A stretch of 64,000 nucleotides of DNA from Treponema rectale (GTDB lineage Bacteria > Spirochaetota > Spirochaetia > Treponematales > Treponemataceae). Both the position numbers and the translations under genes were made by a program. The DNA lies in the NCBI RefSeq assembly GCF_014202035.1, contig NZ_JACHFR010000003.1:311223-375222 (forward strand), in the 5' to 3' direction. This document shows positions 5,054 through 19,974 of the stretch, one piece after another. The notes below the pieces were generated by a model that was given only the letters and a program-made list of their open reading frames with translations, was not told the DNA's origin and made no database searches. The stretch's first letter is position 1; every line of letters starts with the position of its first letter.

Positions 5054-6415
5054 ATGGGCTTATTCAATAAAAAAAACGAAGGCGGATTGATGGATGTAAT
5101 CCGCTGTGATGAAAAAGAATACTTAATCTGGAAATGGCGTCCGGCTGGAGAAGATGTAAACACAACTAAAAAAGAAAATGCAATCCGCTATGGTTCAAGC
5201 CTTCGGGTAAAGGACGGCGAAGTTGCAGTTTTTGTTTATCCGGGTGAAAATGGAAATCAGGATTTTATAGAAGGACCGTTTGATCAGACAATAAAAACAG
5301 GAAACTTTCCGATTCTTTCAAGAATTGTAGGTGCGGCTTTTGGCGGTTCAAGTCCTTTTCAGGCAGAAATTTACTTTATAAATCTTGCAGGCCTGATTCA
5401 AACAGGATTTGCCGTTCCTTATTTTGACATTGCTGACCCAAGATTCTTAGATTTTACAGTTCCTGTGGCTGTTCGCGGCGACATACGTTTTAAAATCACA
5501 GATTACAAGGAGTTTATTAAACTTCATCGTCTGATACATTTTGACTTGGATGATTTTAAATCTCAGATACAATCAGCTGTAACAAAATATGTAAAAAGTG
5601 TAGTAGCAAATATTCCTTCAGAGAAAGGAATCCCGGTAATTCAGCTTGAGCGTAAACTTACAGAAATTAACGATGTAGTTGAAGAATCTCTGAAAAAACG
5701 TTTACAGAATGAGTTTGGTGTAACTGTAAGTTCAGTAGATATAGAAGATATCGATATTGATAAAACTTCTGATGGTTACAATCAGCTTAAAGCCGTTACC
5801 CAGGATGTAACGACACAGACAATACAGCGGCAGACAAATGCAAACCTTACAAACATGGAAGAAACCTTACGCATTCAGCGTGAGGGTATGGCTCAGGCTC
5901 AAAGACTTCAGAATGAAAGCGCAAATCTTTCTGCGTTCCAGCTTGAAAAGCAGGCAGAAGTCGGCGTTGAAGGGGCAAAGGCATTCGGACAAATGGGCGC
6001 AAATGGTGCCGGAAATCTTAATCTTGGCGGTGGGCTTGGAATGAATCCTGCGGGCATGATGGCTGGAATGGCAATGGGAAGCGCAATCGGACAGAACATG
6101 GCTGGTATGGTTGGCGGAATGATGAATGGAATGAATCAGCAGGTGCCGCCACAGGCTAATAATGTACCGCCGGTTCCTGGAAATGAAAGTTATCATGTAG
6201 CAGTTAATGGAACTGCAACTGGTCCTTATACTGTTTCGGTTTTATCAACAATGGCAGCAAACGGTCAGCTGACTTCTGAAAGTCTTGTCTGGAAGCAGGG
6301 TATGTCTAACTGGAAAAAGGCTGGCTCTGTTTCCTCGCTTGCAGGTTTATTTACATCAAGCGTTCCGCCAGTTCCCCCGGTTCCGCCAGTTCCACCAGTT
6401 CCACCACAGATGTAA
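5054..6415 (+). CDS. SPFH/band-7 family protein of the COG4260 'virion core-like' YdjI type, with DUF4339-like C-terminal domain and proline-rich tail
   Basis: N-terminal similarity to B. subtilis YdjI. Gly/Met-rich linker. SYHVAVNGTATGPYTVS...WKQGMSNWKK motif. PPVPPVPPVPPVPP tail. Confidence 0.8.
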   Translation: MGLFNKKNEGGLMDVIRCDEKEYLIWKWRPAGEDVNTTKKENAIRYGSSLRVKDGEVAVFVYPGENGNQDFIEGPFDQTIKTGNFPILSRIVGAAFGGSSPFQAEIYFINLAGLIQTGFAVPYFDIADPRFLDFTVPVAVRGDIRFKITDYKEFIKLHRLIHFDLDDFKSQIQSAVTKYVKSVVANIPSEKGIPVIQLERKLTEINDVVEESLKKRLQNEFGVTVSSVDIEDIDIDKTSDGYNQLKAVTQDVTTQTIQRQTNANLTNMEETLRIQREGMAQAQRLQNESANLSAFQLEKQAEVGVEGAKAFGQMGANGAGNLNLGGGLGMNPAGMMAGMAMGSAIGQNMAGMVGGMMNGMNQQVPPQANNVPPVPGNESYHVAVNGTATGPYTVSVLSTMAANGQLTSESLVWKQGMSNWKKAGSVSSLAGLFTSSVPPVPPVPPVPPVPPQM

Positions 6416-6436
6416 TCTAATTTTAGGAGAAAGAAA

Positions 6437-6784
6437 ATGAAATGTAATATTTTTTTGACTGTAGCTTCTGTACTTATTGCTGCATTAATCGGATATGGTT
6501 TTTATGCAGCAAATTCAACTGAGCATTTGGTCTGGGTTTTATGCAGTGGGGCTGGAATCACTTCTGCACTTACTCTGACAGGAATATTTGGAATTTCAAC
6601 CAAAGGAAGAACTGGAGGAATAAACATAAAGGCTTTGTCGTCAATCTTTTTTGTTCTTTTTTTAATCTGCAATCTCGTGTTTGCTTTTACGGCTGTAAAA
6701 CTTGCACCTTATGTGATTATTAATGGAATCCTTCTGATTATTTATACTATAGGAATTTATGGCATAGTAAAAAGTAAACAGTAA
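6437..6784 (+). CDS. Small membrane protein (3-4 TM, 115 aa)
   Basis: Hydrophobic ORF; GGAG RBS; sits within the same operon. Confidence 0.5.
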   Translation: MKCNIFLTVASVLIAALIGYGFYAANSTEHLVWVLCSGAGITSALTLTGIFGISTKGRTGGINIKALSSIFFVLFLICNLVFAFTAVKLAPYVIINGILLIIYTIGIYGIVKSKQ

Positions 6785-6856
6785 AAAATTTGCATTTTTT
6801 TTAAGATTTTTACTTAAAAAAACACCTTTTGTGTATTTTTTATATAGAGGTAAAGT

Positions 6857-7654
6857 ATGAAAGATACAGACAATAATCTGGCGGCTGCTGAGTTAGCTGC
6901 TAATAAATTAATAAATATTATGCTGAATATGATTCATCCTGTGGAAGACAGGCAGAAGAAAACCGGACAGTTTAAAGCGTTTCTTGCTGAAATCCTCAAA
7001 AGAACATTAAACTCTCCTGCGATAAAAAGCATCGGTAAGTTTTCTTTTGAAATTCTCGATGGAGTAAATATTACAGAAGAATTTGGAGGACTTGTTGACC
7101 ATGAAGGCCACTCTGGAAGAATCAGCAGCGAGGATAAAGTTTATTGTTCTCTACTGAATGGTGAAAAGCTTTTTTTGTTTACAAACAAGTGGTTTGATGA
7201 TTTGTTATTAATTAACCATGATGAACAGTATGATTTGGCTTATCTTCATGACCTTAAATACTTTGCTTTAGTTTTTGGGAATAGTTTTGAGAAGGCTTTT
7301 ATTAGAGAAAGCTGCAGTCAGAATCAGGATTATAGGAAAATGATTCTTTCAAATAAAAAAACTGTTTTTTTTACAGGTCAGAACCATGAATATCTAAAAT
7401 CCGACGACATGAATCAACTAGGATATTATGCAAGATTTAATATCCGTTCAAAAATAAGCCATTCGGACAATCCCTTTCAAATATGGATTTCAGGAAAGCT
7501 TATGGAACAAATCAATCTTGAGCCTTTGCAGACATTGAGACTGAATAATATGCCGGAAGAAATATTTGACATGACTCCAGAAGAATTTGAGCAGATGCAA
7601 AAAAAGATACCTGACCGGATAAAGGAAATAGAAAAAAAGCACTGGAAAGATTAA
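6857..7654 (+). CDS. Hypothetical protein (265 aa)
   Basis: ORF with RBS; no recognisable motif. Confidence 0.5.
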   Translation: MKDTDNNLAAAELAANKLINIMLNMIHPVEDRQKKTGQFKAFLAEILKRTLNSPAIKSIGKFSFEILDGVNITEEFGGLVDHEGHSGRISSEDKVYCSLLNGEKLFLFTNKWFDDLLLINHDEQYDLAYLHDLKYFALVFGNSFEKAFIRESCSQNQDYRKMILSNKKTVFFTGQNHEYLKSDDMNQLGYYARFNIRSKISHSDNPFQIWISGKLMEQINLEPLQTLRLNNMPEEIFDMTPEEFEQMQKKIPDRIKEIEKKHWKD

Positions 7655-7713
7655 GAAATGCTCGTCGGGGAAATTTACGCGATTATATCGAATCTTAAGA
7701 TTAGTAAAAGTAT

Positions 7714-7786
7714 GCAGGGCTTAGAGAAGCGCGGACTGTGGAGAATTTCAGCCTGTGTAAATTGGTATAAGCCCTGCTTTTTTGTA
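7714..7786 (+). terminator. Rho-independent terminator
   Basis: GCAGGGCTTA...TATAAGCCCTGC stem followed by TTTTTTG. Confidence 0.6.
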
Positions 7787-7809
7787 TTGGAAATATAAGA
7801 GGTGACATC

Positions 7810-8607
7810 ATGTCTAAAGAAGAATTTTCTGAATGGGTAGCCAGAAGAGGTGGTCATATTACGGAAACAGGAAAATGTTGCTTCTGTGGAAAAGAATACA
7901 CAGACTATGGTAAATCAACCTGGGGCGTTTGGACCGCTGAAGAAGAACACGAAGCATTTGGTGAAAATAAACGCTGCTGTGCGGAATGTAATGAAAAGAT
8001 TGTCAATGAAGCGCGAAGAGAAAAAGCGGATGCCGTAAAGCAAGGAAAAATCGAAAATTTTTCGCAAGATTTTTTTGAAGTCATTTATGAACGGCGGAGA
8101 AAGGGGTTAGTAGAAGGTGGAGAATCTATAATACGAGTCTATGACAATGGTCTATACCGAAAAATACTTCTTCCCAGAGAGAAATATAAAGGGAAAAAAT
8201 ATAAAGGGGAGCGGAAAGATATAGTCTACGGTAAGGAACTTTCTGTAGTACCTAAACTCCTTGAGTTCTATAGGGAAAATCAGGAAGAGATAGATTCCCT
8301 TTCAGACCGATTAAAAGATCCCTATGACGATCGTATATACAGTGAGGAAAGCATACGGTTTGGCAAAAAGCTTATTACCGGAAATAGTATTTTTGGTGCT
8401 CCGCCTGATGAATATTATGATGAAATTCTCGAAGTTAAACGGACTCCGGAAAAGGATGCAGTCGTACAACAGATAAAAAAACTCTGGAAGCTTGCTCAAA
8501 AAATTGAAAACGGGATTTTAGAAGACGAATTTCCTCTGTATAAAAAAGAAAAGGACGATCGTAGAAAAAGAGTTGCAAGAAACCTGGAACTTAATAGGAA
8601 AAAATAA
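7810..8607 (+). CDS. Hypothetical protein with Cys-rich N-terminus (CCFCGKEY...CCAEC)
   Basis: ORF with AGAGGTG RBS. Confidence 0.5.
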   Translation: MSKEEFSEWVARRGGHITETGKCCFCGKEYTDYGKSTWGVWTAEEEHEAFGENKRCCAECNEKIVNEARREKADAVKQGKIENFSQDFFEVIYERRRKGLVEGGESIIRVYDNGLYRKILLPREKYKGKKYKGERKDIVYGKELSVVPKLLEFYRENQEEIDSLSDRLKDPYDDRIYSEESIRFGKKLITGNSIFGAPPDEYYDEILEVKRTPEKDAVVQQIKKLWKLAQKIENGILEDEFPLYKKEKDDRRKRVARNLELNRKK

Positions 8608-8608
8608 A

Positions 8609-8800
8609 GGGTATGACTAATAAGTTTATTTTATGTCATTTTCGGCTTTAGCTGACGGATGGGATTTGAAGTATGACTAATAAGTTTATTTTATGTCATT
8701 TTCGGGCTCGACCCGAAAATCTATTTATTTATAATATAAGCATTTATAGATTGCCGTATCAAGTACGGCAATGACATTTCAAACTTATTAGTCATTCCCT
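8609..8800. mobile_element. MITE-like element with terminal inverted repeats GGGTATGACTAATAAGTT / AACTTATTAGTCATTCCC; copy 1 of 3
   Basis: The 35-bp terminus is duplicated in tandem (8611-8645 and 8673-8707). Internal palindromes TCGGGCTCGACCCGA and TTGCCGTATCAAGTACGGCAA. Homologous copies at 23292-23410 and 56693-56950. Confidence 0.65.
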
Positions 8801-8830
8801 CTGAACGCGGACTTTTATAAGGAGGATAAT

Positions 8831-9262
8831 TTGGCTATATTAACACAGCTAAGTCTTGCTGAAGAGTTTATGAAAACTATTTTTCCAGGAAATATGAATT
8901 ATAAATTGTTCAAGTCAGAAGCTGATCAAATAATCAAGGTTTGGGAAGGTTTTGGAAAAGCTCTTAAAAAGAACAAGCCGTTAAAATACAATCCAACTTT
9001 GTCACCTGAAGCAAAGAGATATCTTAAAAGATATTCAAAATCTGTTGCTTTTAGTTTAATGGATCTAAGAAAAAAAGCTCAAACACATACAATTATTCCG
9101 GTCAAAACAGAAGCAGAAAAGATAGAACTTGAAAGGTATAAGCTGCGAACTGAAGGTTTTATACTTTATTTTGAGAATACTGAAGACGAGCAGACAAAAG
9201 CTTTTATTAAACTTGTAAAAGATACTAAGAATATGATTTTAGGGGAAGAAGAGAACTCTTAA
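8831..9262 (+). CDS. Hypothetical protein (143 aa, TTG start)
   Basis: AAGGAGG RBS 8 nt upstream of TTG. Confidence 0.45.
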   Translation: MAILTQLSLAEEFMKTIFPGNMNYKLFKSEADQIIKVWEGFGKALKKNKPLKYNPTLSPEAKRYLKRYSKSVAFSLMDLRKKAQTHTIIPVKTEAEKIELERYKLRTEGFILYFENTEDEQTKAFIKLVKDTKNMILGEEENS

Positions 9263-9286
9263 AAGAGCAGACTCTCAATCCGTTTA

Positions 9287-9338
9287 GCAAAAGATCAAAT
9301 GCGGAAACTCCAAGTCCGAAACTATTCTTCCCAGCTCC
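9287..9338. repeat. 52-bp direct repeat, left copy; duplicates the 3' end plus downstream sequence of ybaK
   Basis: Identical to 15113-15164. It contains an in-frame remnant ..SWEE-stop of the ybaK C-terminus on the minus strand. Confidence 0.7.
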
Positions 9339-9449
9339 AACTTGCGAACTTTATTGTACACTATCAAAATGGGACGCGGTTTATTTGAGCTTGCAATTTC
9401 AGTTCCTCTTATTCTGGATTATTCGGAATCAATGCCAGATGGTCCTTTC

Positions 9450-9812
9450 TTACTTTTCTTCGCGGGCGTCTGTGTAAGCTCCGACTCTTTCAACATCTTC
9501 AGGATTTATTTGTACAAAATCATTTGCACAGGTTTCAGCAATATCAATATCTGCAATATAATTAAAAAGTTTTGCAAAGTTGTTTTGTTTTTTAGGCTCG
9601 GCATGAATGTCGTTTTCAAAATCTTCCAGGTTGTCGGTAAAGGTTTCCATGCCTTTTTCAATTTTTGGAGGGAGTTCTTTCTCAGCTTTTTCTACTTTTT
9701 TATCAAATAATTCGGTAAATCTCTTATACAAAGTTTTCTTTTTTTTCTCACAATTTACCAAAGCAGATACAAACATAATCAAAACTACAAAACTGAGAAG
9801 TTGCTTTTTCAT
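9450..9812 (-). CDS. Small secreted protein/lipoprotein (signal peptide ...VSALVNC)
   Basis: N-terminal signal peptide; preferred over the overlapping + ORF 9342..9710. Confidence 0.5.
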   Translation of the reverse strand: MKKQLLSFVVLIMFVSALVNCEKKKKTLYKRFTELFDKKVEKAEKELPPKIEKGMETFTDNLEDFENDIHAEPKKQNNFAKLFNYIADIDIAETCANDFVQINPEDVERVGAYTDAREEK

Positions 9813-9830
9813 TTCTACCTCCAGAATTTA

Positions 9831-9966
9831 GGGTGAGGGGGAAAGCCTTCCCCCTGCGTCGCACTCCGTTGCGCCGCACCCCCTTCGCCTAAGGGGCGAG
9901 CCCCTTAAAAACCCCAGCCTCCGCTTAATCGCGGTTAACCTGCCTTAGCGCAAGATAGTCTGGGGA
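9831..9966. repeat. GC-rich miniature repeat, family member
   Basis: GGGTGAGGGGGAAAGCCTTCCCCC hairpin, CCTTAGCGC motif; GC far above flanks. Confidence 0.45.
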
Positions 9967-9975
9967 AAATATTAA

Positions 9976-10755
9976 CTATGAGTTTTCTTCTTGGTGAGTT
10001 TTTGATTTATTGGTTATTCCACCTAACGGAATAATTCCTAAAACAGCTCCAGGGAAGATAATTCCAAGCCCAAGTCCTTTGAAAAAGGCTAAAAATGAAC
10101 CTGCATCTACAGCAATAAAGATTCCTGTCGCAATGGCACCAGCAACATCAAGGGCTCCGCCTACAATAAGCCTTTTTTTCAGTTTGTTTTTCATTTCGTT
10201 TTTTGCTTCTTCATACAGAGAACTGAGTTTTTCTGCAAAAGGCGAGTTAGAACTTTTTAATACTTTAATCTCATTTTCAATTCTTTGAGTGTATGCTTTT
10301 TTGTAATCATTATCAGCAAGTAAACCTGGGTGACAGGTCTTATAATCTTCAACAAAAAGGATTGCACTGCGGTTAAAACTATCATCATCACTTTCATCAA
10401 ACTGAAAATTTTTGATTGCAGAAATTGCAGCATCATGCCGTGCCTTTCTTTCTGCTGCACGAGCTTCTTCTTCTGCTCTTTTTGCATCATTTGCACTCTT
10501 ATTAGCAGCACTTCTTGCAGCTGCTGCACCTGCAATTCCGCCGGCTATACCACCAAGGAGACTTCCTCCTTTACTTCCAGAACCTTTTCCTGCGTTAGCT
10601 GCTTCACAACAGCCTTTTGAACAGTATTCTAAACCAGATTCATTACCTCCAAGCATTGTTACCCATGCCCATGCTCCGCATTCAGGGAAAAATTTTCCAC
10701 ATTGAGCACAGTAACCTGAGTGACTATAGATATTTTTTTGTGCTTTTCCGCCCAT
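9976..10755 (-). CDS. Hypothetical protein with Cys-rich N-terminus and Gly-zipper C-terminal membrane segment
   Basis: CAQCGKFFPECGAWAW...CSKGCC motifs; Gly/Ala-rich stretches; C-terminal GxxxG-rich hydrophobic region. Confidence 0.5.
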   Translation of the reverse strand: MGGKAQKNIYSHSGYCAQCGKFFPECGAWAWVTMLGGNESGLEYCSKGCCEAANAGKGSGSKGGSLLGGIAGGIAGAAAARSAANKSANDAKRAEEEARAAERKARHDAAISAIKNFQFDESDDDSFNRSAILFVEDYKTCHPGLLADNDYKKAYTQRIENEIKVLKSSNSPFAEKLSSLYEEAKNEMKNKLKKRLIVGGALDVAGAIATGIFIAVDAGSFLAFFKGLGLGIIFPGAVLGIIPLGGITNKSKTHQEENS

Positions 10756-10915
10756 TCTTTTTTCCTCCGCGTAATTCGTCCGCCGACTATAATTAATTTA
10801 TTTGGCTCATATTACATCGGAAATTTTTTTCTGTATTGGGGGGAAACTCTTAGGAAATGAAAGGAAATATTCCTGAATATTTTGGGAGTTAATACCTTAC
10901 GCACATAAGGCGAGT

Positions 10916-12316
10916 TTACTGATACAAATCTTCCAGCTTATAAAGAATCAACTGCTGTTTATGGGACTCGTCAATCTTTTTATACCCAGATTTAGAGAAA
11001 AATCCGTATTTGCTGCAAATTAAACCTGTGCTATTTACCTGCTGGATTTCGTTCCAAATGAGATTTTTGTCTAATTTACCTTCACGGAATTTTGCTTCGT
11101 AAAAGATATAGGAATTATCGTTTTCAGTGACTACATCAAATTCACCGTTTTTATGATTTACTGGATCGTCATACCGGTACTTTCCGATCTTTTCAAAAGA
11201 TTCAGGTAATTCTCCTGAGCGATTTTTACGGATTAAAAATTGTCGGCAAATCTGTTCGAAAGCCTGTGGGACATAATGTTCTTCAAAATCGGGTTCAATA
11301 AATTTATCATAGAAAGCTTCAGACTTCATCACTGCAAGTCTTGAAAGATTTCTGTAAATGTATTTGAAATAAAATAAAGTCAGCTGGTCTGAAATATAAT
11401 AGCCGGCTTTTTTCTTGTTATTTTCATCATTAACTGGAGATTCTTTTACAACGATATCCATATTTATTAATTTATCAAGAACATCTGCAAGTGTTGGTGA
11501 ACTTGAGACTTGTGATTGAGAGAGAATATCTTTAAATCGAACAAATCCTTTTGCCAGAACTTCAAAAACTTCATACGCATTCTGCATTTTGGAAATTTCA
11601 GATTTCAGGTGCATCTGAACTTCATTTTCAAAACGGCTGCCGGGACTGGCAATCAAATCAATTATATTCTGTTTAACTGTCTTTGATGAATCTATGCGTC
11701 TGTTGTAATAAGGGATTCCGCCAAAAACAGAATATAAGCGGACCTTATCTTCATCACTGAAATCTTTATAGAAGAGAGCTGATTCATAATAATCCATAGC
11801 TTTAAGATTCATAACTAAATCAAAACGACCAAAAAGCGGATTTTCTTCCGAGAGCAAAGACTTCATGGTTTCTACGTAAGAGCCACATAAAATCAGCTTT
11901 AATCTGGAAGTAGACTTATTATTGTCGATAAAAGACTGAATAATGCTGTCTAATCCCTCTACAACTTTACGGATATAAGGATATTCATCAATCACCAGGA
12001 TTAATTCTTTTTTTGCAGCTTGCTTAGAGAGAAAAGCAAGTGTTGATTCAAATGTATCAAAGGCTAAAGGCGGCAGACCAAAAGTTTCTGAAATGATTTC
12101 ACAAAGGGATTTGACATTATTCAGCTCAGAGGTTTCTTTACATTCATAATAAATGGAAGTTGTTTTTGTTTCTTTCAGGCAATGCTTAATCAGTTCTGTT
12201 TTGCCAACCCGCCGACGACCGTAAATCAGGGCTGCATCATTATTATCTGAATTGAAAAATCTTGAAATTGCTTTGATATTTTCTTTTCTTCCAAAGAAAA
12301 CTTCCCCTGTTGCCAT
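10916..12316 (-). CDS. AAA+ ATPase of the Arch_ATPase/DUF234 family
   Basis: Walker A (GRRRVGKT) and Walker B (LILVIDEYP); C-terminal DUF234-like region. Confidence 0.75.
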   Translation of the reverse strand: MATGEVFFGRKENIKAISRFFNSDNNDAALIYGRRRVGKTELIKHCLKETKTTSIYYECKETSELNNVKSLCEIISETFGLPPLAFDTFESTLAFLSKQAAKKELILVIDEYPYIRKVVEGLDSIIQSFIDNNKSTSRLKLILCGSYVETMKSLLSEENPLFGRFDLVMNLKAMDYYESALFYKDFSDEDKVRLYSVFGGIPYYNRRIDSSKTVKQNIIDLIASPGSRFENEVQMHLKSEISKMQNAYEVFEVLAKGFVRFKDILSQSQVSSSPTLADVLDKLINMDIVVKESPVNDENNKKKAGYYISDQLTLFYFKYIYRNLSRLAVMKSEAFYDKFIEPDFEEHYVPQAFEQICRQFLIRKNRSGELPESFEKIGKYRYDDPVNHKNGEFDVVTENDNSYIFYEAKFREGKLDKNLIWNEIQQVNSTGLICSKYGFFSKSGYKKIDESHKQQLILYKLEDLYQ

Positions 12317-12403
12317 ATGCTTCTCCTTTTTACTCGATTATTTCCGACTCGGTTTTATCCGAGTAAAATAATAATGCTGAAAAAAGAAATCGTCAAGAAG
12401 AGG

Positions 12404-12928
12404 CTAAGCTTCTCCCTTAATTTTCCTTTTCCAAAATTGCCAGATGGTAATAAGCTCGCCGGCAAGGTTCCATCGTTTTTGTTCCTGCATGTTTTCCCAG
12501 GCTTTAATGCCGTATTCGTAGAAGTTATCGTCATTTTTTATGGCGGCAGAAACGATTAAGTCTATGTCGCTTTTAGAAAGAAGACCGTCAAAGGCGGCGC
12601 ACCATTTCTGGTAGACACGGCAGGGGTTTGCGTTGTCAAAGGCGTAGAAGCCGGGCAGGCGGTAAATGGGGCACATTTTTGAAATGCCTAAGTTCGCCGC
12701 AAACTTTGTAAAGAGCTGCTGATACCACTTTACTCCGTAGCGGCCGCCAAAAAGCCCGTTATCCTTCTGTTTTTTTTCTATTTTTCTCTGTGTCTGGTAT
12801 ATTTTTTCTGCAAGCTGGCATTGATATTCATCTTCCGGGTCTGCGGAAATCGTGAAAAATTCTATTCGGGCGAGTAAGATACAATTTTTAAGGCTTTCCT
12901 CGTATTTCTTCGGGCGGTTCTTTTTCAT
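12404..12928 (-). CDS. Hypothetical protein (174 aa)
   Basis: ORF lying between the ATPase and the histidine kinase, co-oriented. Confidence 0.45.
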   Translation of the reverse strand: MKKNRPKKYEESLKNCILLARIEFFTISADPEDEYQCQLAEKIYQTQRKIEKKQKDNGLFGGRYGVKWYQQLFTKFAANLGISKMCPIYRLPGFYAFDNANPCRVYQKWCAAFDGLLSKSDIDLIVSAAIKNDDNFYEYGIKAWENMQEQKRWNLAGELITIWQFWKRKIKGEA

Positions 12929-12940
12929 TGACCCTCCGCT

Positions 12941-13762
12941 TTACTGCTGGGGAATCTCCAGCCGCACTTCCGTTCCTGTGTCAGGGGAGCTGTTTACGGT
13001 AAGAGTGCCGTCCAGAAGTTTCGCACGCATTTCCATACCGCTTATGCCAAAGTGAGATGAAGCGTCAGTCGGTGGTAGCTGGTTTGTAGAATCGAAGCCC
13101 TGACCGTCATCAAAAATCATAATGCGAATCACTCCGCTAGATTTCTGTTGCCCGCTTATCCGTCTGATTACAACACTAGTCTCTTCTGCCTTTGCGTGGG
13201 CCCGGACATTGTTCAAGGCTTCCTGAATAATGCGCAGAATATGGTGCTTTTGTTCGGTGGTGAAGGTGTCTAAAGAAAGGTCGGGTGCAACAAAAAATTT
13301 GCAAGGGATTTCGCTTTGGGCGTAAAACTGCTCGCATAAATCATTGATGACAGTCTTAAAGGGAATGCTTGCAAGAGCGGGAACTGCAAGATTCTGAATT
13401 ATTGCACGCAGCTCCTTCTGGTTTTTCTTTTCCAGGCTGATGATTTTTTCAAATTCAGAAAGCAGATTTGCGTCCGTGCAGCGGTCTTTGAGTTCCTTTT
13501 GGGAAAGCAGCAGGGCTTTTATGTTCTGGCTTACCGTATCGTGCAACTCCTGACTGATTCTGCGGCGTTCTTCTTCCTGTATGCCTATTGTTTCTTCAAT
13601 AAATTGCCGGTTGTCCTTAAGTTTTTTGCGGGATTTAATGTTGTGAATCAAAATCACCATAAGGATGATAAAGGCTGCAAAGGTAAGAACAACAAGAAAG
13701 ATAAAAAACGAGGTGTACAAACTGAGGGCGGATGTTAAATCCTGCAAATCAAGCTCGGTCAT
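12941..13762 (-). CDS. Sensor histidine kinase, HisKA_3 type, single N-terminal TM with no external sensor domain
   Basis: LHDTVSQNI H-box; HATPase_c C-terminus. Start ATG overlaps the stop of the upstream membrane-protein gene (ATGA). Confidence 0.75.
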   Translation of the reverse strand: MTELDLQDLTSALSLYTSFFIFLVVLTFAAFIILMVILIHNIKSRKKLKDNRQFIEETIGIQEEERRRISQELHDTVSQNIKALLLSQKELKDRCTDANLLSEFEKIISLEKKNQKELRAIIQNLAVPALASIPFKTVINDLCEQFYAQSEIPCKFFVAPDLSLDTFTTEQKHHILRIIQEALNNVRAHAKAEETSVVIRRISGQQKSSGVIRIMIFDDGQGFDSTNQLPPTDASSHFGISGMEMRAKLLDGTLTVNSSPDTGTEVRLEIPQQ

Positions 13763-14349
13763 TTGCGCAATCCCGAATAAATGCCGTAAGCGGCAAAAGT
13801 ACAGATAAAGCGGTCTAAAAGCGTGATGGGAATGCGGGGCAAAAGATAAGACAGAAATACGCTGAAATTCATTTTTTGAAATATTAAGGAAATGTCGTCG
13901 ATTGCCGAAAAGCCCGATGCTTTTTTAAAAAGCGGGCGGATAAAGGTGTCCAGTGCGCTTGCAGAAAATGAACTTAGAAAGGTTGAGAAGAAAACGATTA
14001 TCAGAAGGTAAAGAAGCGTAACGCGGCGGTTAAAATGAAACTCCTTTTTGTTGCGGCTGAAAAGCCAGCTGGCTATTACAATCAGGATTCCGCAGATTCC
14101 GTACAAAAAATCATACAGGAAGATTTCGCTGCCGGTCATTGCGCAGCGCAGGATTGTCATAATCGGGTTAAAAAGAGCGGCAACGATAATTCCTGGAATA
14201 AGGCCTGCATAAAAAGTAATTGCCACGGTAAAAATTGTGTCTAAAAAGGCCGGGAGTTTGAGGGCTGAGGCCAGCATTGCGCTTGCAATGTTCAATAGAA
14301 GGGCAAGGAGACATAAAAGTCCTGTGAATGCAATCTTTTTGGATTTCAT
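13759..14349 (-). CDS. Polytopic membrane protein (196 aa), paralog B of the TCS-associated family
   Basis: Paralogous to 1106..1705 and 21123..21743. Translationally coupled (ATGA overlaps) to both the response regulator and the kinase. Confidence 0.65.
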   Translation of the reverse strand: MKSKKIAFTGLLCLLALLLNIASAMLASALKLPAFLDTIFTVAITFYAGLIPGIIVAALFNPIMTILRCAMTGSEIFLYDFLYGICGILIVIASWLFSRNKKEFHFNRRVTLLYLLIIVFFSTFLSSFSASALDTFIRPLFKKASGFSAIDDISLIFQKMNFSVFLSYLLPRIPITLLDRFICTFAAYGIYSGLRK

Positions 14350-14996
14350 AATCTTCCCATTTTTTCAAGAAACTGGAGTTTATTTTCTACTCCTGCCTTA
14401 TCATATAAAATTGTCAGGTAATTTACGACAGTTTTTTCTGCAATTCCAAGGGCGGCGGCAACTTCGGCATTTGTGTTGTGGATGGTCAGTGTATCGGCAA
14501 CAAGCTTTTCCTTTTTAGTGAAGGTCTGGGTGATGTCGCGCACTTCCAGAAGCCCGGTTACAAGCTCAGCCTGAATATATGTTCCGCCATTTGCCACCGA
14601 GTTGATTGCCGCAAGCAGAATGGCTTCATCCGCTGTTTTTGAAACAAAGCCTTTTGCTCCCACAGCAGGACTTGTTGCGTGTTCAACAAAGCCGCCCGAA
14701 TCGTGGCTGGAATAGGCAATGCATGGAATCCCCAGAGCTGAAAATTCTTTGATGATGTCAAAACCGGAATTTTCCATCTGAGAATCTGCAGTCTTAAATG
14801 AAATATCAACGACCGCAAGAAATTCGTCAGCCTTAAGGCTTCCTTTTTCAAACTGATTCTGGATTTCCTTACAGTCTTTAACGTTACTTGCCTGAAATTC
14901 AACCTTATAATCCGAATGATTTTCTATCCAGTTTTTAATTCCGTTCAGTAGGAGTGCGTGATCATCAACAATAATTATGTTTTTTCTCATAAGCAT
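14346..14996 (-). CDS. Response regulator, NarL/LuxR family
   Basis: IIIVDDH receiver motif; C-terminal LuxR-type HTH (EKLVADTL...AEKTVVNYLTILYDK). Confidence 0.8.
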   Translation of the reverse strand: MLMRKNIIIVDDHALLLNGIKNWIENHSDYKVEFQASNVKDCKEIQNQFEKGSLKADEFLAVVDISFKTADSQMENSGFDIIKEFSALGIPCIAYSSHDSGGFVEHATSPAVGAKGFVSKTADEAILLAAINSVANGGTYIQAELVTGLLEVRDITQTFTKKEKLVADTLTIHNTNAEVAAALGIAEKTVVNYLTILYDKAGVENKLQFLEKMGRL

Positions 14997-15112
14997 AATT
15001 ATACTATGAAAAAGAAATGGTTTTGTAGGGGAATTACTCCCAGAAATTTTGGGAGTAGAAAATCATTCTGTTGAAAAATTAAAACTTGTAGCAGATACTC
15101 TTGCATTGATAA

Positions 15113-15164
15113 GTTAGCAAAAGATCAAATGCGGAAACTCCAAGTCCGAAACTATTCTTCCCAG
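15113..15164. repeat. 52-bp direct repeat, right copy; overlaps the native 3' end of ybaK
   Basis: Identical to 9287-9338. Confidence 0.7.
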
Positions 15165-15625
15165 CCCTTACAGACATCACACCAGCCGGTGGCGCCTGAT
15201 ACTTCTTCCAGTTCAGAAGGGGTGAGTTTTACCGAAGTAAATGAGTTTCCGCCTGCTGGATGAACGTATTCAAATCTCTTCATTGAAACATCGAGCCATA
15301 CTGGGATTTCTTTTGGAACATTGAAAGGGCAGACTCCGCCGGGAACAAAGCCGGTAATTGCTTCAACCTGGTCGCGGGCAATCATGCTGGGCTTTACGTG
15401 AAACTGTGCTTTGAACTTTGAGTAGTTTACACGGCCATCACCTGCCATTACCACGATAACAGGTTTTTCATCCACAATAAATGAAAGCGTCTTTGCAATC
15501 TCCGCCTCGGAACAGCCAATCTGCTGTGCTGCATGTTCTACGGTGTCGATTGTTTCTTTGTGTTCGGTGAGTCTGTCTGCATATCCCTTAGCTTTGAGGA
15601 AGTCTAAAACTTTATCATTTATCAT
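15152..15625 (-). CDS. ybaK: YbaK/ProX-family aminoacyl-tRNA deacylase (Cys-tRNA(Pro) deacylase-like)
   Basis: YbaK domain similarity (VMAGDGRVNYSKFKAQF...GGVCPF). Confidence 0.75.
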   Translation of the reverse strand: MINDKVLDFLKAKGYADRLTEHKETIDTVEHAAQQIGCSEAEIAKTLSFIVDEKPVIVVMAGDGRVNYSKFKAQFHVKPSMIARDQVEAITGFVPGGVCPFNVPKEIPVWLDVSMKRFEYVHPAGGNSFTSVKLTPSELEEVSGATGWCDVCKGWEE

Positions 15626-16545: not shown

Positions 16546-17075
16546 AATCCTGTCCTTGTTTCAGTATAGCAGAATTGTTGTAAAAAATAAAGAACAAGGA
16601 ATAAAGGTTTGGGCGTTACCGTCTGCCTGCCGGCAGCCGGTCGGGCTTTTCGCCATTCCGCTGCAATGGTATTTTGTGGAATATTTATAAAACCTGCGAT
16701 TTTTGAAGCAAGCTCACAGGCTGACTTTATTGCATCCTGTGCGTCATTCTTATTTATAAGATTTTGAATTTCATTTATTTTTGAATCAGAATCAATTTTT
16801 AATGTCTTTTTTAATTTTTCGATAAACTCATCTTTTTTAATTCTAAGTTTTGTAACTAAAGTCTGATTTTCTTTTTCAATCAAAGTAAGAAATTGAAGTG
16901 TTGGAATAGCGAAAATATTCTTTTTAAAAGAAGTATCTGAAAAAATGCCGGTTTTATTGAATATTTCTTCAAGCCGTTCTTGGACAAGGCTGTTTGTTAC
17001 ACAAAATTTCACCATCTTGTTTTCCATAACAGGATTTAAGACAGCGTGCTTTTCAAATAAAGCGTGAAAGTCCAT
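16542..17075 (-). CDS. Hypothetical protein (177 aa) whose 3' end reads through a GC-rich repeat
   Basis: The last ~30 codons (WRKARPAAGRQTVTP...) are encoded by GC-rich element 16611-16668. Confidence 0.4.
   Translation of the reverse strand: MDFHALFEKHAVLNPVMENKMVKFCVTNSLVQERLEEIFNKTGIFSDTSFKKNIFAIPTLQFLTLIEKENQTLVTKLRIKKDEFIEKLKKTLKIDSDSKINEIQNLINKNDAQDAIKSACELASKIAGFINIPQNTIAAEWRKARPAAGRQTVTPKPLFLVLYFLQQFCYTETRTGL
16611..16668. repeat. GC-rich miniature repeat lying inside the 3' end of the preceding gene
   Basis: GGGCGTTACCGTCTGCCTGCCGGCAGCCGGTCGGGC with palindromic core. Confidence 0.45.
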
Positions 17076-17113
17076 GTTTTTAACTTCTTTATAATCAAAG
17101 CGATAGCATTTTT

Positions 17114-17347
17114 TTACAAGAGAAGAACTTTTGAAAAATCAACTTGGAGCGTATCTGCAATGTTGTATAACTCATCTGCTGTCAGTTCTATTAGATTTTT
17201 GTTATTGTACAAAAACTTTGAAGTGCAGTAAAAATAGAGCTGCTCCCATTCTGCTTTCGTCATTATGCTTACATTTCGCTCTTTTACATAATCAACAAAG
17301 AAATGAACTGCATTTTTTGATTTTTTTCCTGACATTCTTTTCTCCAT
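17114..17347 (-). CDS. Hypothetical small protein (77 aa)
   Basis: ORF only. Confidence 0.35.
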   Translation of the reverse strand: MEKRMSGKKSKNAVHFFVDYVKERNVSIMTKAEWEQLYFYCTSKFLYNNKNLIELTADELYNIADTLQVDFSKVLLL

Positions 17348-17355
17348 AATTATTA

Positions 17356-17460
17356 GGGCGTTCCCCGCCGCGGGGCGGCGGGGCGGGCGTTACGCGGCTT
17401 GCCTGGCGGCCGGTCTGCTGACGCAGACTGCTTCGCACCGCTCCATGCCCTAACGCATTT
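17356..17460. repeat. GC-rich miniature repeat, well-preserved family member
   Basis: 5' end GGGCGTTCCCCGCCGCGGGGCGG; 3' end CTGCTTCGCACCGCTCCATGCCCTAACGCATTTT, shared with 34436-34548 and 24784-24980. Confidence 0.6.
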
Positions 17461-17469
17461 TACAGGAAT

Positions 17470-18132
17470 TTATTTAATTATGCCAAATGCAGGTAATAAC
17501 TGAGCAATAGTAGCAAGATTGCTTGCGGCACCCAAAATATTCTCAACAATTTCTAAAGGTGATGTCCCGTTTTTTGTAATCTCATCAATTTTTGCAGCAT
17601 CTTTTACATCTTTTTTGGCAGTTTTTATAAATTCATTCCGGGCTTGCTCATCATTTTTGTAAAGAACTGCACAGAATACGGAAATCGGCATTTCAACCTT
17701 ACGGCTGTTAAGATAGTTATCGGCAGGGTAGCCGGTTATGTCCTCCGCCGCATTAGCCAGATTCTTTTTTATATGCGGATAAGGCACACTCAGCAAAACA
17801 TTTTTATTATCTTTTTGAAGATAAATCTTTATGCTTCCGTTTGAAATTCTTGTTTTTAGTTCTGCTATAGATTCTTCCACAGATTGAGGCTTTTTTGCTC
17901 TGGCATTTGCCGCCAGTCTTAGTGCAGAAAGTTTTGTTTCTGTAATATGAAGTTCGTTTGCAATTTCGTTTTCCCTCATGGAGGAATCTATATAGCCCAA
18001 ATCTGTAATCAATGAAAAAACAAGAGTATCTATCTCTGATTTTGGAAGCACCCCAAAACCAAGTGACAGGTATTTTTCCAAAAACTGTTGAACAAATATT
18101 GAATCTCTTTTTTCGTTGACAGAATATTCCAT
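17470..18132 (-). CDS. Hypothetical protein (220 aa)
   Basis: ORF only. Confidence 0.45.
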   Translation of the reverse strand: MEYSVNEKRDSIFVQQFLEKYLSLGFGVLPKSEIDTLVFSLITDLGYIDSSMRENEIANELHITETKLSALRLAANARAKKPQSVEESIAELKTRISNGSIKIYLQKDNKNVLLSVPYPHIKKNLANAAEDITGYPADNYLNSRKVEMPISVFCAVLYKNDEQARNEFIKTAKKDVKDAAKIDEITKNGTSPLEIVENILGAASNLATIAQLLPAFGIIK

Positions 18133-18164
18133 AGTTTTTTCTCCATCTTTTTTGTCTTTGTTTT

Positions 18165-18225
18165 CCCCACCGTCGTCACTTTGTGCCGTCGGCGGGGCGG
18201 GACTACAGATACTGTAGCCCCTAAT
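18165..18225. repeat. GC-rich miniature repeat, short member
   Basis: CCCCACCGTCGTCAC...GGCGGGGCGGG...CCCCTAA. Confidence 0.4.
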
Positions 18226-18238
18226 TTAGTTTTATTAT

Positions 18239-19777
18239 TTAGTTAAAAACCCTGATACAACAAACGTTTCCTGGATAGTTACATACATAAAGCGGCAGCA
18301 AAGCATCTTTCATATTATCCTCTTTAAAGATGATATATTGTCCGTTATTAATACTACTTGGCGTTGATGATAAGTAAGCAGCTTCATATGTATCATCTAC
18401 TGCCATCGCATCATCTTCAAGACTTTTTCCAGTACATAATTTACAGGCTTCATTTACAGTAGACTTCTGTGTCCAAATATCATAAAGTTCTGCCAAAGAC
18501 GGTAAATACCATCCGTCTTCAAAATCTGTGTTTTTAACATGACTGCCTTCTTTATCTTTGTAATTAATTGCAAATTCAAATGCCGGATAGTGTGTTAAAT
18601 CGTCTGTGTCGTCCTCTGTTTTGTCATTTTCTTCAAGAAAAGCTTTAATTTCCGCAAGATTATCACTTCCATCAGTGTCACCAGTAAATGTTTCTGTTTT
18701 AGAATCAAAATCACACATTATAGATTCAACTTCATACTGTTCACCCATACCGGCCTTTATAACGATTTTCGATAAACGATTATACAATAGTAAACCATCC
18801 TTATTCTGCAAGATTCCAACACCGTACGCTTTAGAAACATCAGCCTTATAAATAATGGCAATTGAGTTTTCTTTCTGCTCGTCGGTAAGTGTAAGGCCCG
18901 AGGTATAAGGTGTGGCAGAGCCATCTGCAAATACAATGTCGCCAACTGCTTTTTGTGCATCCGGTTTTTTTGTTCCTGCAAACCATTTTGCAGTAATCTC
19001 TAAAGTTCCTGTAATTGGTGTTGTAAAGTCAAATTCAGTATCTCCGACAAACCAGCCTTTGAAAGCGCTTCCTTCTTTTGTCGGGTCAGCTGGTCTTTCA
19101 ACTTTATTTCCATGGTTGACAGTCTTGGTTTCTGCTGTGCTTCCGTTTTTTGAATCGAAAGTTACAGTATGAGTTACGACATTTGTTGCCCATTTTGCAT
19201 AAAGGGTAATGTCCTTTGTAATGGCTGTGTCAAAATCAAAGGCTGTATCAGAGAGTGTTGTGCCTTCGTCTTCTGAAGTGTACCAGTTTTCAAAGGTGTA
19301 AGTTTCTGTTTCTGTAGCCTGCTTTGTAGGGTCAGCGGGTTTTGTGACCTTTTTTCCGTGGACGATTGTCTGTTCCGCAGGAGACGTGCTTCCGCCTTTT
19401 GTGTCAAAAGTCACAGTGTGGGTAACTGCATTGACCGCCCATTTTGCATAAAGAGTAATGTCTTTTGTGATTGGAGTATTAAAGTCAAAGGCTGTATCAG
19501 AAAGTGTCGTGCCGTTGTCCGTTGATGTGTACCAGTTTTCAAAAGCGTATGTTTCAGTAGCGACAGCCTGTTTTGTTGGATTAGCCGGCTTTGTGGCCTT
19601 CTTTCCGCTTTCAACCTTCTGGCTTTTAACCTCTGTTCCGCCATTTGAATTGAAGCTTACGGTGTAATATACAGGTGGCTGTGATGTGTCATCATCATCA
19701 TCTGCCTTACATGAAGCAAAGGCAAATCCCAGCCCCATAGCCGCAAGCAAAAGAAGGTACCTCGCTAGTTTTTTCAT
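18239..19777 (-). CDS. Surface lipoprotein with three Listeria-Bacteroides-type (InlB B-repeat-like) ~80-aa repeats
   Basis: Lipobox LGFAFASC after a start at MKKLARYLL with GGAG RBS. Three ~250-bp tandem DNA repeats produce nested spurious ORFs on both strands. Paralog of 35651..37450. Confidence 0.7.
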   Translation of the reverse strand: MKKLARYLLLLAAMGLGFAFASCKADDDDDTSQPPVYYTVSFNSNGGTEVKSQKVESGKKATKPANPTKQAVATETYAFENWYTSTDNGTTLSDTAFDFNTPITKDITLYAKWAVNAVTHTVTFDTKGGSTSPAEQTIVHGKKVTKPADPTKQATETETYTFENWYTSEDEGTTLSDTAFDFDTAITKDITLYAKWATNVVTHTVTFDSKNGSTAETKTVNHGNKVERPADPTKEGSAFKGWFVGDTEFDFTTPITGTLEITAKWFAGTKKPDAQKAVGDIVFADGSATPYTSGLTLTDEQKENSIAIIYKADVSKAYGVGILQNKDGLLLYNRLSKIVIKAGMGEQYEVESIMCDFDSKTETFTGDTDGSDNLAEIKAFLEENDKTEDDTDDLTHYPAFEFAINYKDKEGSHVKNTDFEDGWYLPSLAELYDIWTQKSTVNEACKLCTGKSLEDDAMAVDDTYEAAYLSSTPSSINNGQYIIFKEDNMKDALLPLYVCNYPGNVCCIRVFN

Positions 19778-19960: not shown

Positions 19961-19974
19961 CGGAGGTAGTAAAA

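What the first reader, a model, noticed from the sequence alone, without database searches (positions are those of the whole stretch)
9287..15164. 5.8-kb segment bracketed by perfect 52-bp direct repeats that duplicate the 3' end of ybaK (att-like)
TTAGCAAAAGATCAAATGCGGAAACTCCAAGTCCGAAACTATTCTTCCCAGC occurs at 9287-9338 and 15113-15164. The right copy is the real 3' end of ybaK (..GWEE-stop) plus ~40 bp downstream. The left copy carries an orphan in-frame ..SWEE-stop remnant. That is the signature of site-specific integration into a gene's 3' end with target reconstitution. The bracketed segment carries a lipoprotein, a Cys-rich/Gly-zipper protein, a DUF234 AAA ATPase, a 174-aa unknown protein and TCS module 2, all on one strand. 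A GC-rich repeat lies inside. No integrase is present, so it may be a decayed or mobilisable island.
Basis: seen in the sequence. Interest (0 to 1): 0.55.

Follow-up and report, generated by a model that had tools for sequence, protein, structure and literature searches.

The report
Integrase-less gene islet at ybaK end
A 5.8-kb block of accessory genes in Treponema rectale is a real, recent, strain-specific insertion at the end of the ybaK gene. It is the newest layer of a stack of recombinase-less gene blocks that have piled up at this spot, which is an ordinary kind of genome hot spot at a previously undescribed site.

Summary
It occurs only twice in the window and is not a generic REP. Close relatives carry the empty site: ybaK, one copy of the 52-mer, then the 143-aa gene. 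So the 5.8-kb block (islet B) is an insertion polymorphism.

B is the youngest layer of a stack. An older 8.2-kb islet A (1108-9283) lies distal to it and ends in a decayed copy of the last 221 nt of ybaK. After that copy, relatives continue with the ancestral ybaK downstream sequence.

Only 14 of the 52 repeat bases come from ybaK. The other 38 are the end of islet A. The two copies are flanked by different alleles of the 143-aa gene tail.

I found no recombinase in A, B or the 64-kb window, and none next to ybaK in about 100 related loci. The orphan ybaK tails differ in length between events (14, 36, 81 and 221 nt).

Best reading: hot-spot accretion by host homologous plus illegitimate recombination. 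The rival is a decayed, trans-mobilised (CIME-like) element. This is a new member of a known kind, of moderate-to-low interest.

The parts
15114..15165 (.). ybaK-proximal copy of the 52-bp direct repeat. It holds the last 14 nt of ybaK including the stop (15152-15165) plus 38 nt downstream (15114-15151).
9284..9335 (.). Distal copy of the 52-bp repeat. It carries an orphan 14-nt ybaK tail (9322-9335, ..SWEE*). It lies 21 nt after the stop of the 143-aa gene.
15152..15625 (-). ybaK (Cys-tRNA(Pro) deacylase family, 157 aa), intact. Its 3' end is the insertion hot spot.
   Evidence: Pfam tRNA_edit 7e-25; TIGR00011; 92-98% aa identity across rumen and gut Treponema
9336..15113 (-). Islet B, the bracketed 5.8-kb accessory block. 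It is absent from L010, L009 and L102-L106, and present at least in part in L022, L083 and L097.
15080..15113 (+). 'P-tail': a 34-nt remnant of the 3' end of a T. porcinum-type allele of the 143-aa gene (..KLVADTLALIS*). It sits inside B, directly beside the right repeat copy.
   Evidence: L083 keeps 62 nt of the same tail
14346..14996 (-). LuxR/NarL-type response regulator (216 aa), first gene of B.
   Evidence: Response_reg + GerE; 96% identical in L022 and 91% in L083
15036..15056 (.). Perfect 7-7-7 palindrome ACTCCCA-N7-TGGGAGT upstream of the regulator gene. A degenerate second copy lies at 10869-10889, upstream of the Cys-rich gene. Inferred to be the regulator's operator.
   Evidence: (family D2). 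Inference only: 3 matches against about 1 expected, which is not significant on its own.
13759..14349 (-). 196-aa polytopic membrane protein resembling an ECF-transporter S component. Likely the sensor partner of the kinase.
   Evidence: NCBIfam ECF_S_CD3073 4e-7, below cutoff; same gene type in modules 1 and 3
12941..13762 (-). HisKA_3 histidine kinase (273 aa) with one N-terminal TM segment and no sensor domain.
12404..12928 (-). 174-aa protein of unknown function. Small Treponema-restricted family; one homologue sits in a phage-like contig.
   Evidence: AlphaFold model pLDDT 56, unusable
10916..12316 (-). ATPase_2 + DUF234 ATPase (466 aa). Matches the candidate anti-phage gene PDC-S27.
   Evidence: Pfam; PADLOC PDC-S27 4e-47
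9976..10755 (-). Cys-rich / Gly-zipper 259-aa protein. It occupies a variable cassette slot bounded at about 10809 and 9967. Other genomes hold PDDEXK_4 + radical SAM genes, or a Zn-ribbon/SPFH/GYF gene set, in this slot.
9450..9812 (-). 120-aa lipoprotein-like protein, last gene of B.
9826..9926 (.). GC-rich REP-like repeat inside B. The adjoining 9902-9971 stretch is the conserved right boundary of the cassette slot.
8831..9262 (+). 143-aa gene ('W-type' allele), last gene of islet A and convergent with ybaK in empty-site genomes. 100% identical to T. rectale HNP77_002062.
1108..9283 (.). Islet A, the older layer. It holds TCS module 1 (1106-3555, - strand) and a divergent operon (3574-9262: Zn-ribbon, SPFH+GYF, unknowns). 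Shared with L009, L010 and L102.
1071..1107 (.). Decayed orphan copy of ybaK nt 15337-15373 (35 of 37 identical). It starts right after the stop codon of the last gene of islet A. It is what remains of the displaced last 221 nt of ybaK.
16597..23432 (.). Islet C on the other side of the Rrf2-ybaK core. It holds TCS module 3 and surface-repeat proteins, and is bracketed by a 22-27-bp imperfect direct repeat (16575-16596 and 23433-23454). This is context, not part of B.

Best explanation
What it is. The block 9336-15113 (islet B) is a recently acquired, dispensable accessory block of Treponema rectale. It lies in an insertion hot spot at the 3' end of ybaK.

Order on the chromosome, read in the ybaK sense:
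1. Intact ybaK.
2. The 52-mer.
3. B (5.8 kb).
4. The 52-mer again.
5. Islet A (8.2 kb, older).
6. A decayed copy of the last 221 nt of ybaK.
7. The ancestral ybaK downstream region.

Each layer arrived together with a replacement end for ybaK. The gene therefore stays intact and the previous end is pushed outward.

How B got there (inferred). B encodes no recombinase. I think DNA carrying ybaK-38 nt-P-tail-B, from a T. porcinum-type background, was taken up. It was joined by host functions in two steps:
- A homologous crossover in ybaK or in the shared 52 bp on one side.
- On the other side, a joint between the end of B and position -14 of ybaK. This joint was either illegitimate (homology-facilitated illegitimate recombination) or made earlier in a donor and then carried across by flanking homology or a Campbell-type single crossover.

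What the 52 bp is. It is the stretch of identity shared by incoming and resident DNA. One end is set by the -14 joint. The other end is the point where the P and W alleles of the 143-aa gene tail diverge. The same repeats can delete B again by recombination.

Cargo (inferred from domains). A three-gene sensory module (LuxR-type regulator, ECF-S-like membrane protein, sensor-less HisKA_3 kinase). It probably autoregulates, and probably controls the downstream small membrane and lipoprotein genes, through the ACTCCCA-N7-TGGGAGT box. B also carries a PDC-S27-like ATPase, a candidate anti-phage gene.

Shown versus inferred. Shown: the repeat, the empty sites, the stacked structure with ybaK remnants, the allelic flanks and the absence of recombinase genes. 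Inferred: the recombination pathway, the direction and vehicle of transfer, and the cargo function.
For: - Empty sites with one 52-mer: L010, L009, L102 (plus 9 similar places) and L104-L106.
- Occupied sites: L022 and L083.
- The stack: the distal end of islet A carries a ybaK remnant that starts at -221. L010 keeps 92 nt of it. L009 keeps 24 nt plus the last ~38 nt of ybaK and 65 nt downstream. The window keeps 37 nt. The DNA after L010's remnant is 91-98% identical to the DNA immediately downstream of ybaK in T. ruminis, L006, L017, L008, L023, L007 and L028.
- 38 of the 52 nt occur only in genomes carrying islet A.
- The flanks of the two copies are different alleles.
- Orphan tail lengths differ between events: 14 nt (B), 36 nt (L083, L084), 81 nt (Butyrivibrio L061) and 221 nt (A).
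- The distal joint of islet A abuts a stop codon and leaves no room for an arm region.
- No recombinase or transposase domain in any ORF of at least 110 aa in the window.
- Motif and XerD-seeded searches over 3357 ORFs in 1.5 Mb of related loci found none adjacent to ybaK. They did find a genuine Phage_integrase 8.7 kb away in L052, which serves as a positive control.
- B is mosaic, with a cassette slot exchanged between conserved flanks.
- ybaK and Rrf2 are 93-96% identical at the DNA level across species, which offers a recombination anchor.
- The definition of homology-facilitated illegitimate recombination is taken from PMC3240628.
Against: - All events target the same gene end and rebuild it, and all the repeats share the last 14 nt of ybaK. 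This is what a site-specific recombinase with its crossover point there would produce.
- Tandem accretion is typical of integrase-driven elements (PMC5704250).
- Only 64 kb of this genome was available, so a recombinase encoded elsewhere cannot be excluded.
- No microhomology is visible at the -14 joint, because the donor sequence beyond it is unknown.
- I have no evidence that these treponemes are naturally transformable.
- The left junction (B end | 52-mer) is seen only in this assembly.
Confidence: 0.5

Rival explanations
1. B, and islet A before it, are decayed or satellite integrative elements (CIME-like). They were integrated by site-specific recombination at an att site covering the end of ybaK, and they are still mobilisable by a tyrosine or serine recombinase supplied in trans by a related element elsewhere in the genome.
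For: [quoted passage not shown]
- A tandem stack, as described for CIME/IME accretion (PMC5704250).
- All the repeats overlap in the last 14 nt of ybaK.
- A similar ybaK-tail duplication around a 2.1-kb insert in Butyrivibrio.
- Precedent for an integrase-less island moved in trans: the MccH47 island (PMC3191183).
Against: - No integrase in A, B or the 64-kb window, and none adjacent to ybaK in about 100 related loci.
- The ybaK tail is absent from viral contigs, and B is absent from the phage and plasmid collections.
- 38 of the 52 nt plus the adjoining P-tail are sequence from an earlier islet, not from the conserved gene.
- The repeat boundaries differ in every event.
- The distal joint of islet A abuts a stop codon.
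Confidence: 0.3
2. B is ancestral at this position, and the 'empty' relatives are secondary deletions by recombination between the two 52-bp copies. Nothing was recently inserted in T. rectale.
For: - A 52-bp perfect repeat is a good substrate for deletion.
- L010 and L102 have exactly the product expected from such a deletion.
Against: - The empty state is the common one: 13 or more contigs, two allelic types and several species.
- The P-type empty sites (L009, L084) cannot be derived from the window's arrangement by deletion between the repeats.
- The two copies are still 52/52 identical, although the same 52-mer differs by 1-2 nt in the relatives L010 and L009.
- The origin of the repeat would still need an insertion.
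Confidence: 0.08
3. The repeat is a generic intergenic repeat, a transposon target duplication, or an assembly artefact. Under this reading it has no connection with how the segment arose.
For: The region is rich in small repeats: GC-rich REP-like elements and a 125-nt palindromic element.
Against: - Only two copies in 64 kb, and all outside matches are in the same context.
- No terminal inverted repeats and no transposase. Fifty-two bp is far longer than typical transposon target duplications (established knowledge).
- The 52-mer does not fold better than shuffled sequence (z about 0 to 1).
- The right junction is reproduced in an independent unitig assembly (L001, L002) and in L022 and L083.
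Confidence: 0.03

Closest known systems
CIMEs (cis-mobilizable elements) in tandem accretion with ICEs/IMEs in streptococci, as defined in Guedon et al. 2017 (PMC5704250)
   Same: - No integration or transfer genes.
- Bracketed by direct repeats that include the 3' end of the target gene.
- Stacked in tandem with an older element at the same gene end, with the target gene kept intact.
   Different: - No cognate integrase-bearing element was found at this site in any related genome examined.
- The repeat is mostly sequence of the previous islet, not of the target gene.
- Repeat boundaries differ from event to event.
- The target, ybaK, was not found as an att site in my two literature searches.
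Microcin H47 genomic island of E. coli (PMC3191183)
   Same: A small (13 kb) island without its own recombinase, flanked by long direct repeats. Recombination can occur in several identity segments within those repeats.
   Different: - There, recA-independent excision and integration were shown experimentally. Here nothing is known about excision.
- Unrelated cargo and host.
- The repeats here are perfect and shorter.
Homology-facilitated illegitimate recombination, and insertion hot spots between conserved core genes (PMC3240628 for the mechanism)
   Same: - A conserved anchor on one side (ybaK/Rrf2, 93-96% DNA identity across species).
- Variable joints on the other side.
- No mobility genes.
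- Cargo typical of variable islands: candidate defence ATPase, type III R-M, SUKH immunity protein, sensory modules.
   Different: - A duplication of the anchor's end, rather than a deletion, is not the textbook outcome.
- Competence of these treponemes is unknown.
- No microhomology could be documented.
Phages and islands that integrate into the 3' end of a protein gene and carry a substitute 3' end (for example e14 and phage 21 in icd, SGI1 in trmE; from my own knowledge, plus PMC8409611 for trmE and dusA)
   Same: The gene end is replaced by an incoming copy, and the displaced end remains as an orphan at the far side.
   Different: Those elements encode their own integrase next to the att site. 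None is present here.

Membership tests
Self-mobile integrative element (prophage, ICE, IME or genomic island with its own integrase) | Encodes a tyrosine or serine recombinase within the element | tested here: not met
   No recombinase domain in any of the 7 ORFs of B, in islet A, or in any ORF of at least 110 aa in the 64-kb window.
Self-mobile integrative element (prophage, ICE, IME or genomic island with its own integrase) | Flanked by direct repeats (attL/attR) with an empty site (attB) in relatives | tested here: met
   52/52 repeat. Single-copy sites in L010, L009 and L102-L106.
Self-mobile integrative element (prophage, ICE, IME or genomic island with its own integrase) | Excises as a circle carrying attP | not testable with these tools
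   No read data. No attP-like junction was found in the viral, plasmid or metagenome scans.
CIME (cis-mobilizable element; PMC5704250) | [quoted passage not shown] | tested here: met
   No such genes are present and the repeats are intact.
CIME (cis-mobilizable element; PMC5704250) | Its att sites are those of a related integrase-bearing element that uses the same target | tested here: not met
   In about 100 loci (1.5 Mb) around ybaK homologues, no recombinase gene lies next to the ybaK 3' end. The only Phage_integrase (L052) is 8.7 kb away, beyond a core gene and an IS21. Limitation: only 10-kb flanks were examined, and only 64 kb of this genome.
CIME (cis-mobilizable element; PMC5704250) | Found in tandem with other elements at the same gene end | tested here: met
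   B lies next to islet A, which ends in a ybaK remnant. In L083 a further block precedes B.
Hot-spot islet acquired by homologous plus illegitimate recombination (HFIR-type) | A conserved anchor sequence on one side, shared by donor and recipient | tested here: met
   ybaK and Rrf2 are 93-96% identical in DNA across T. zioleckii, T. ruminis, T. bryantii, T. porcinum and many MAGs.
Hot-spot islet acquired by homologous plus illegitimate recombination (HFIR-type) | The joint on the other side falls at different positions in independent events | tested here: met
   Orphan ybaK tails of 14, 36, 81 and 221 nt.
Hot-spot islet acquired by homologous plus illegitimate recombination (HFIR-type) | Short microhomology at the illegitimate joint | tested here: inconclusive
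   The joint of islet A shares 'GA'. For the -14 joint of B no donor sequence is available, and no similarity extends beyond the repeat (local alignment no better than shuffled sequence).
Generic intergenic repeat (REP) | Many copies at unrelated loci | tested here: not met
   Two copies in the window. Outside it, the 52-mer occurs only next to ybaK or the 143-aa gene.
Transposon with target-site duplication | Terminal inverted repeats and a transposase, with a short duplication | tested here: not met
   No inverted repeats at the ends of B, no transposase, and a 52-bp duplication.

The most novel reading that the evidence does not exclude
The last ~14 nt of ybaK might be the crossover site of an undescribed, trans-acting recombination system shared by rumen and gut Treponema and Butyrivibrio. 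That system would stack recombinase-free cargo cassettes (sensory modules, candidate defence genes, immunity proteins, acetyltransferases) behind ybaK and rebuild the gene each time. A parallel process might operate at the second hot spot upstream of Rrf2. There, a type III R-M system in L010 and a sensory module in T. rectale sit between the same ~25-bp repeats.
Probability: 0.12. Interest if true: 0.65.

Novelty: new member of a known kind. Interest (0 to 1): 0.33.

Why it matters
It adds a clearly documented example of how accessory genes pile up at one gene end without carrying their own recombinase. The site (ybaK 3' end) and the organisms (rumen and gut treponemes) are ones where mobile DNA is poorly described. 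The example has empty sites, a stacked history and datable layers.

It also shows that a perfect 'att-like' repeat can simply be the identity segment between two alleles of an earlier islet. That is a caution for automated island and att callers.

The practical consequence is modest. B is a dispensable block carrying a candidate anti-phage ATPase and a sensory module, and it can probably be lost by recombination between the repeats.

Tried and rejected
- Phage or plasmid origin: no match for B in the phage collection. Only one irrelevant 64% match in plasmids. The ybaK tail and the 24-mer core are absent from viral contigs.
- tRNA or tmRNA target, or a known RNA family: none in the window.
- Integron or attC idea: the 52-mer has no significant secondary structure, and B is a 7-gene block, not a cassette. 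Dropped.
- Xer/dif-type site: no dyad-symmetric 11-6-11 architecture seen in the 52-mer by eye, and no inverted repeat reported there. Not pursued further.
- Decayed ybaK homology beyond the left repeat copy (9336-9452): local alignment no better than shuffles.
- Tandem duplication as the origin of modules 1 and 2: their proteins are only about 25-30% identical. Rejected.
- Function of the 174-aa protein: the AlphaFold model from 13 sequences had pLDDT 56, so no fold search was run.
- Exact-protein look-ups of the 143-aa and 120-aa proteins found nothing on record. The upstream end of the L097 contig, a close relative carrying B's right half, could not be fetched.
- Donor identity of the blocks preceding the orphan tails in L083 and L084: no match anywhere.

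Full report
OBSERVATION
The 52-mer is present exactly twice, at 9284-9335 and 15114-15165, on the same strand and with 0 mismatches. There is no third copy at up to 3 mismatches, and none is expected by chance. ybaK is the - strand ORF 15152-15625 (tRNA_edit; YbaK_EbsC). The right copy therefore holds the last 14 nt of ybaK with its stop codon plus 38 nt downstream. The left copy lies 21 nt after the stop of the 143-aa ORF 8831-9262 and ends in an orphan ..SWEE*. Between the copies (9336-15113) lie seven - strand genes:
- a LuxR-type response regulator;
- a 196-aa ECF-S-like membrane protein;
- a HisKA_3 kinase;
- a 174-aa unknown protein;
- an ATPase_2+DUF234 ATPase;
- a Cys/Gly-rich 259-aa protein;
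- a 120-aa lipoprotein-like protein.
The organism is Treponema rectale: the 143-aa protein is 100% identical to HNP77_002062.

IT IS AN INSERTION POLYMORPHISM
A scan of one genome per species with YbaK returned 80 loci.
- In MAG L010, ybaK is followed by one copy of the 52-mer (1 mismatch) and then directly by the sequence that follows the left copy in the window.
- The same empty arrangement, with a 52-mer identical to the window's, occurs in L102 (with 9 similar places not shown) and in L104-L106.
- T. porcinum (L009) is also empty, but it carries another allele of the 143-aa gene. I call this allele 'P-type'. Its last codons..KLVADTFALIS*, run into the 52-mer.
- Occupied sites exist in L022 (regulator 96% identical, next to ybaK) and in L083.
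- A 24-nt core of the repeat found only two metagenome contigs, both in this context, and no viral contig.
The 'generic REP' refutation therefore fails, and the 'empty site' prediction is met.

THE REPEAT IS NOT A SIMPLE att SITE IN ybaK
Three observations show this.
(i) In species without the neighbouring genes, similarity to the window stops at the ybaK stop codon. Only the 11-14 nt ybaK tail of the 52-mer is found there. The other 38 nt therefore belong to the adjacent older block, islet A.
(ii) Inside B, directly beside the right copy, 15080-15113 encodes ..KLVADTLALIS*. This is the 3' end of a P-type 143-aa gene. The left copy is flanked by the complete 'W-type' gene. The duplicated unit is thus [143-aa gene tail + 38 nt + ybaK tail]. 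The two copies come from different alleles. The perfect 52 bp is exactly the stretch between B's joint at ybaK -14 and the point where the two alleles diverge. L083 keeps 62 nt of the P-type tail.
(iii) Other events at this gene end left orphan tails of other lengths. L083 and L084 have 36 nt, preceded by unrelated genes, one of them a SUKH-3 immunity protein. Butyrivibrio VCD2006 has 81 nt, around a 2.1-kb Rce1-like + GNAT insert. Islet A left 221 nt.

A STACK OF LAYERS
Islet A (1108-9283) consists of sensory module 1 plus a divergent operon with Zn-ribbon and SPFH/GYF proteins. It is shared with L009, L010 and L102. Its far end is a ybaK fragment that starts at position -221, immediately after the stop codon of the last gene. 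The fragment is 37 nt long in the window (1071-1107, equal to 15337-15373). It is 92 nt long in L010. In L009 it is 24 nt plus the last ~38 nt of ybaK and its downstream sequence. The DNA after L010's remnant is 91-98% identical to the DNA directly downstream of ybaK in T. ruminis and six other genomes. The ancestral arrangement was therefore ybaK followed by that region. Islet A arrived with a new ybaK end, and B arrived later between ybaK and A. B's repeats are still perfect, whereas A's have decayed. In L083 a further block lies between ybaK and B.

NO RECOMBINASE
No integrase, resolvase or transposase domain was found in any ORF of at least 110 aa of the window. I ran motif searches and a phmmer search seeded with E. 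coli XerD. These searches covered 3357 ORFs from 1.5 Mb of related loci. They found one tyrosine recombinase, confirmed by Pfam (L052). It lies 8.7 kb from ybaK, beyond a core gene and an IS21. They also found two resolvases that are not adjacent to ybaK. B has no relative in the phage or plasmid collections.

B IS MOSAIC
GC content is 34-38% in the left half and 42-46% in the right half. Between about 10809 and 9967 there is a cassette slot with different contents in different genomes:
- the Cys-rich gene in the window;
- PDDEXK_4 plus radical-SAM genes in L094 and L096;
- a Zn-ribbon/SPFH/GYF set in L097 and L098.
Sensory module 2 also occurs in another context in L093, where homology ends at window position 15061. 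Homologues of four B genes are linked in Hadza-gut treponemes in a different order. The DUF234 ATPase matches the candidate defence gene PDC-S27 at 4e-47.

MECHANISM
I favour hot-spot accretion by host recombination (0.5). Under this reading, incoming DNA from a P-type background recombined homologously in ybaK or in the 52 bp. The other joint, at -14, was illegitimate or pre-formed (HFIR as defined in PMC3240628, or a Campbell-type crossover of a circle). Five observations support this: the allelic flanks, the varying joints, a joint that abuts a stop codon, the absence of recombinases, and cassette exchange between conserved flanks.

The main rival (0.3) is a decayed, trans-mobilised element of the CIME type (PMC5704250). 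The integrase-less MccH47 island is a precedent (PMC3191183). This rival is attractive because every event rebuilds the same gene end, and all the repeats overlap in the last 14 nt of ybaK. With only 64 kb of this genome available, I cannot exclude a recombinase encoded elsewhere.

VERDICT
This is a new member of a known kind, an integrase-less islet in a gene-end hot spot. It is well documented but not surprising to a specialist.

Noticed in passing
window 16575-16596 and 23433-23454, bracketing 16597-23432; L010:2878-9192: A second hot spot lies upstream of Rrf2. A 6.8-kb block (sensory module 3, Flg_new-repeat protein, unknowns) is bracketed by a 22-27-bp imperfect direct repeat, TGTT(A/C)TTTATTTTTTACAACAA. 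T. ruminis, T. bryantii and L005 have one copy and no insert. L010 has a type III restriction-modification system between the same repeats.
   Followed up: partly
window 8673-8800, 23294-23411, 56851-56946 (reverse); partial extra copy 8611-8645: A ~125-nt palindromic, MITE-like element with terminal inverted repeats GGGTATGACTAATAAGTTT.../...AAACTTATTAGTCATTCCC and two inner hairpins. It folds far better than shuffles (z -8.0 and -6.8). The hairpin stem bases differ between copies (GTATC/GTAC versus GTGTC/GCAC, by eye). The 8612-8815 stretch is absent from L010. There is no Rfam match.
   Followed up: partly
window 884-982, 9826-9926, 16597-16672, 17336-17458, 24813-24933, 33244-33356, 34435-34492: A family of GC-rich (at least 64% GC) intergenic REP-like elements in a ~39% GC genome, with shared motifs such as CTGCTTCGCA..GCTCCAT.CCTAACGC. 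The stretch 873-954 is 98.8% identical to an insert in T. ruminis (L004:6887-6968), where it sits at a different locus. Several copies lie at or near islet boundaries.
   Followed up: partly
window 1106-3555, 12941-14996, 20561-22893: Three paralogous 'three-component' modules: a LuxR-type regulator, an ECF-S-like membrane protein and a HisKA_3 kinase without a sensor domain. They are 25-30% identical to one another. Each sits in a different variable islet around the Rrf2-ybaK core. Several more such modules occur in Hadza-gut Treponema contigs.
   Followed up: partly
window 15644-16018: The RidA gene between Rrf2 and ybaK is present in some species (L003, L006, L020, L029) and absent from that position in others (L004, L005, L007, L010, L012). 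In T. ruminis a copy lies 5.8 kb away.
   Followed up: no
window 27364-30311 versus L012 and L014: In T. bryantii and L014 the genes homologous to 27377-28690 and 29270-30310 lie directly downstream of ybaK. The block ybaK-Rrf2-23433..26887 is therefore circularly permuted relative to T. rectale.
   Followed up: no
L102:10433-10583 (also L104-L106): A ~150-nt structured insertion lies between the 143-aa gene and the 52-mer in otherwise empty sites. It is flanked by a short duplication, GAGAAC.TTTAA / AAGAACTCTTAA, and may be another small non-autonomous element.
   Followed up: no
L096:6037-6068: In L096 the homologue of the lipoprotein gene is followed at once by a 32-nt ybaK fragment (equal to window 15312-15281) and then by the end of the 265-aa gene of islet A. 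The breakpoint at 15282 is the same as in L010's remnant.
   Followed up: partly
window 1-252: Tandem repeats of about 106 nt (92% identical) containing AAGTAAAACTGTTACC motifs at the very start of the window.
   Followed up: no
window 40305-40354 and 40648-40697: Two nearly identical 50-nt GC-rich stretches 343 nt apart, upstream of the trp genes.
   Followed up: no
window 18239-19852 and 35588-37450: Paralogous Flg_new (Listeria-Bacteroides repeat) surface proteins, 70-81% identical in DNA over several internal repeats. One of them lies inside islet C.
   Followed up: no
L015-L082: YbaK of rumen Lachnospiraceae and Butyrivibrio is 77-83% identical in protein to the Treponema one, which is unusually close for different phyla. 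Two contigs binned as Lachnospiraceae (L008 and L030, the latter from isolate AD3010) carry Treponema-like (96%) or intermediate (83%) copies. This suggests gene transfer or binning errors.
   Followed up: no
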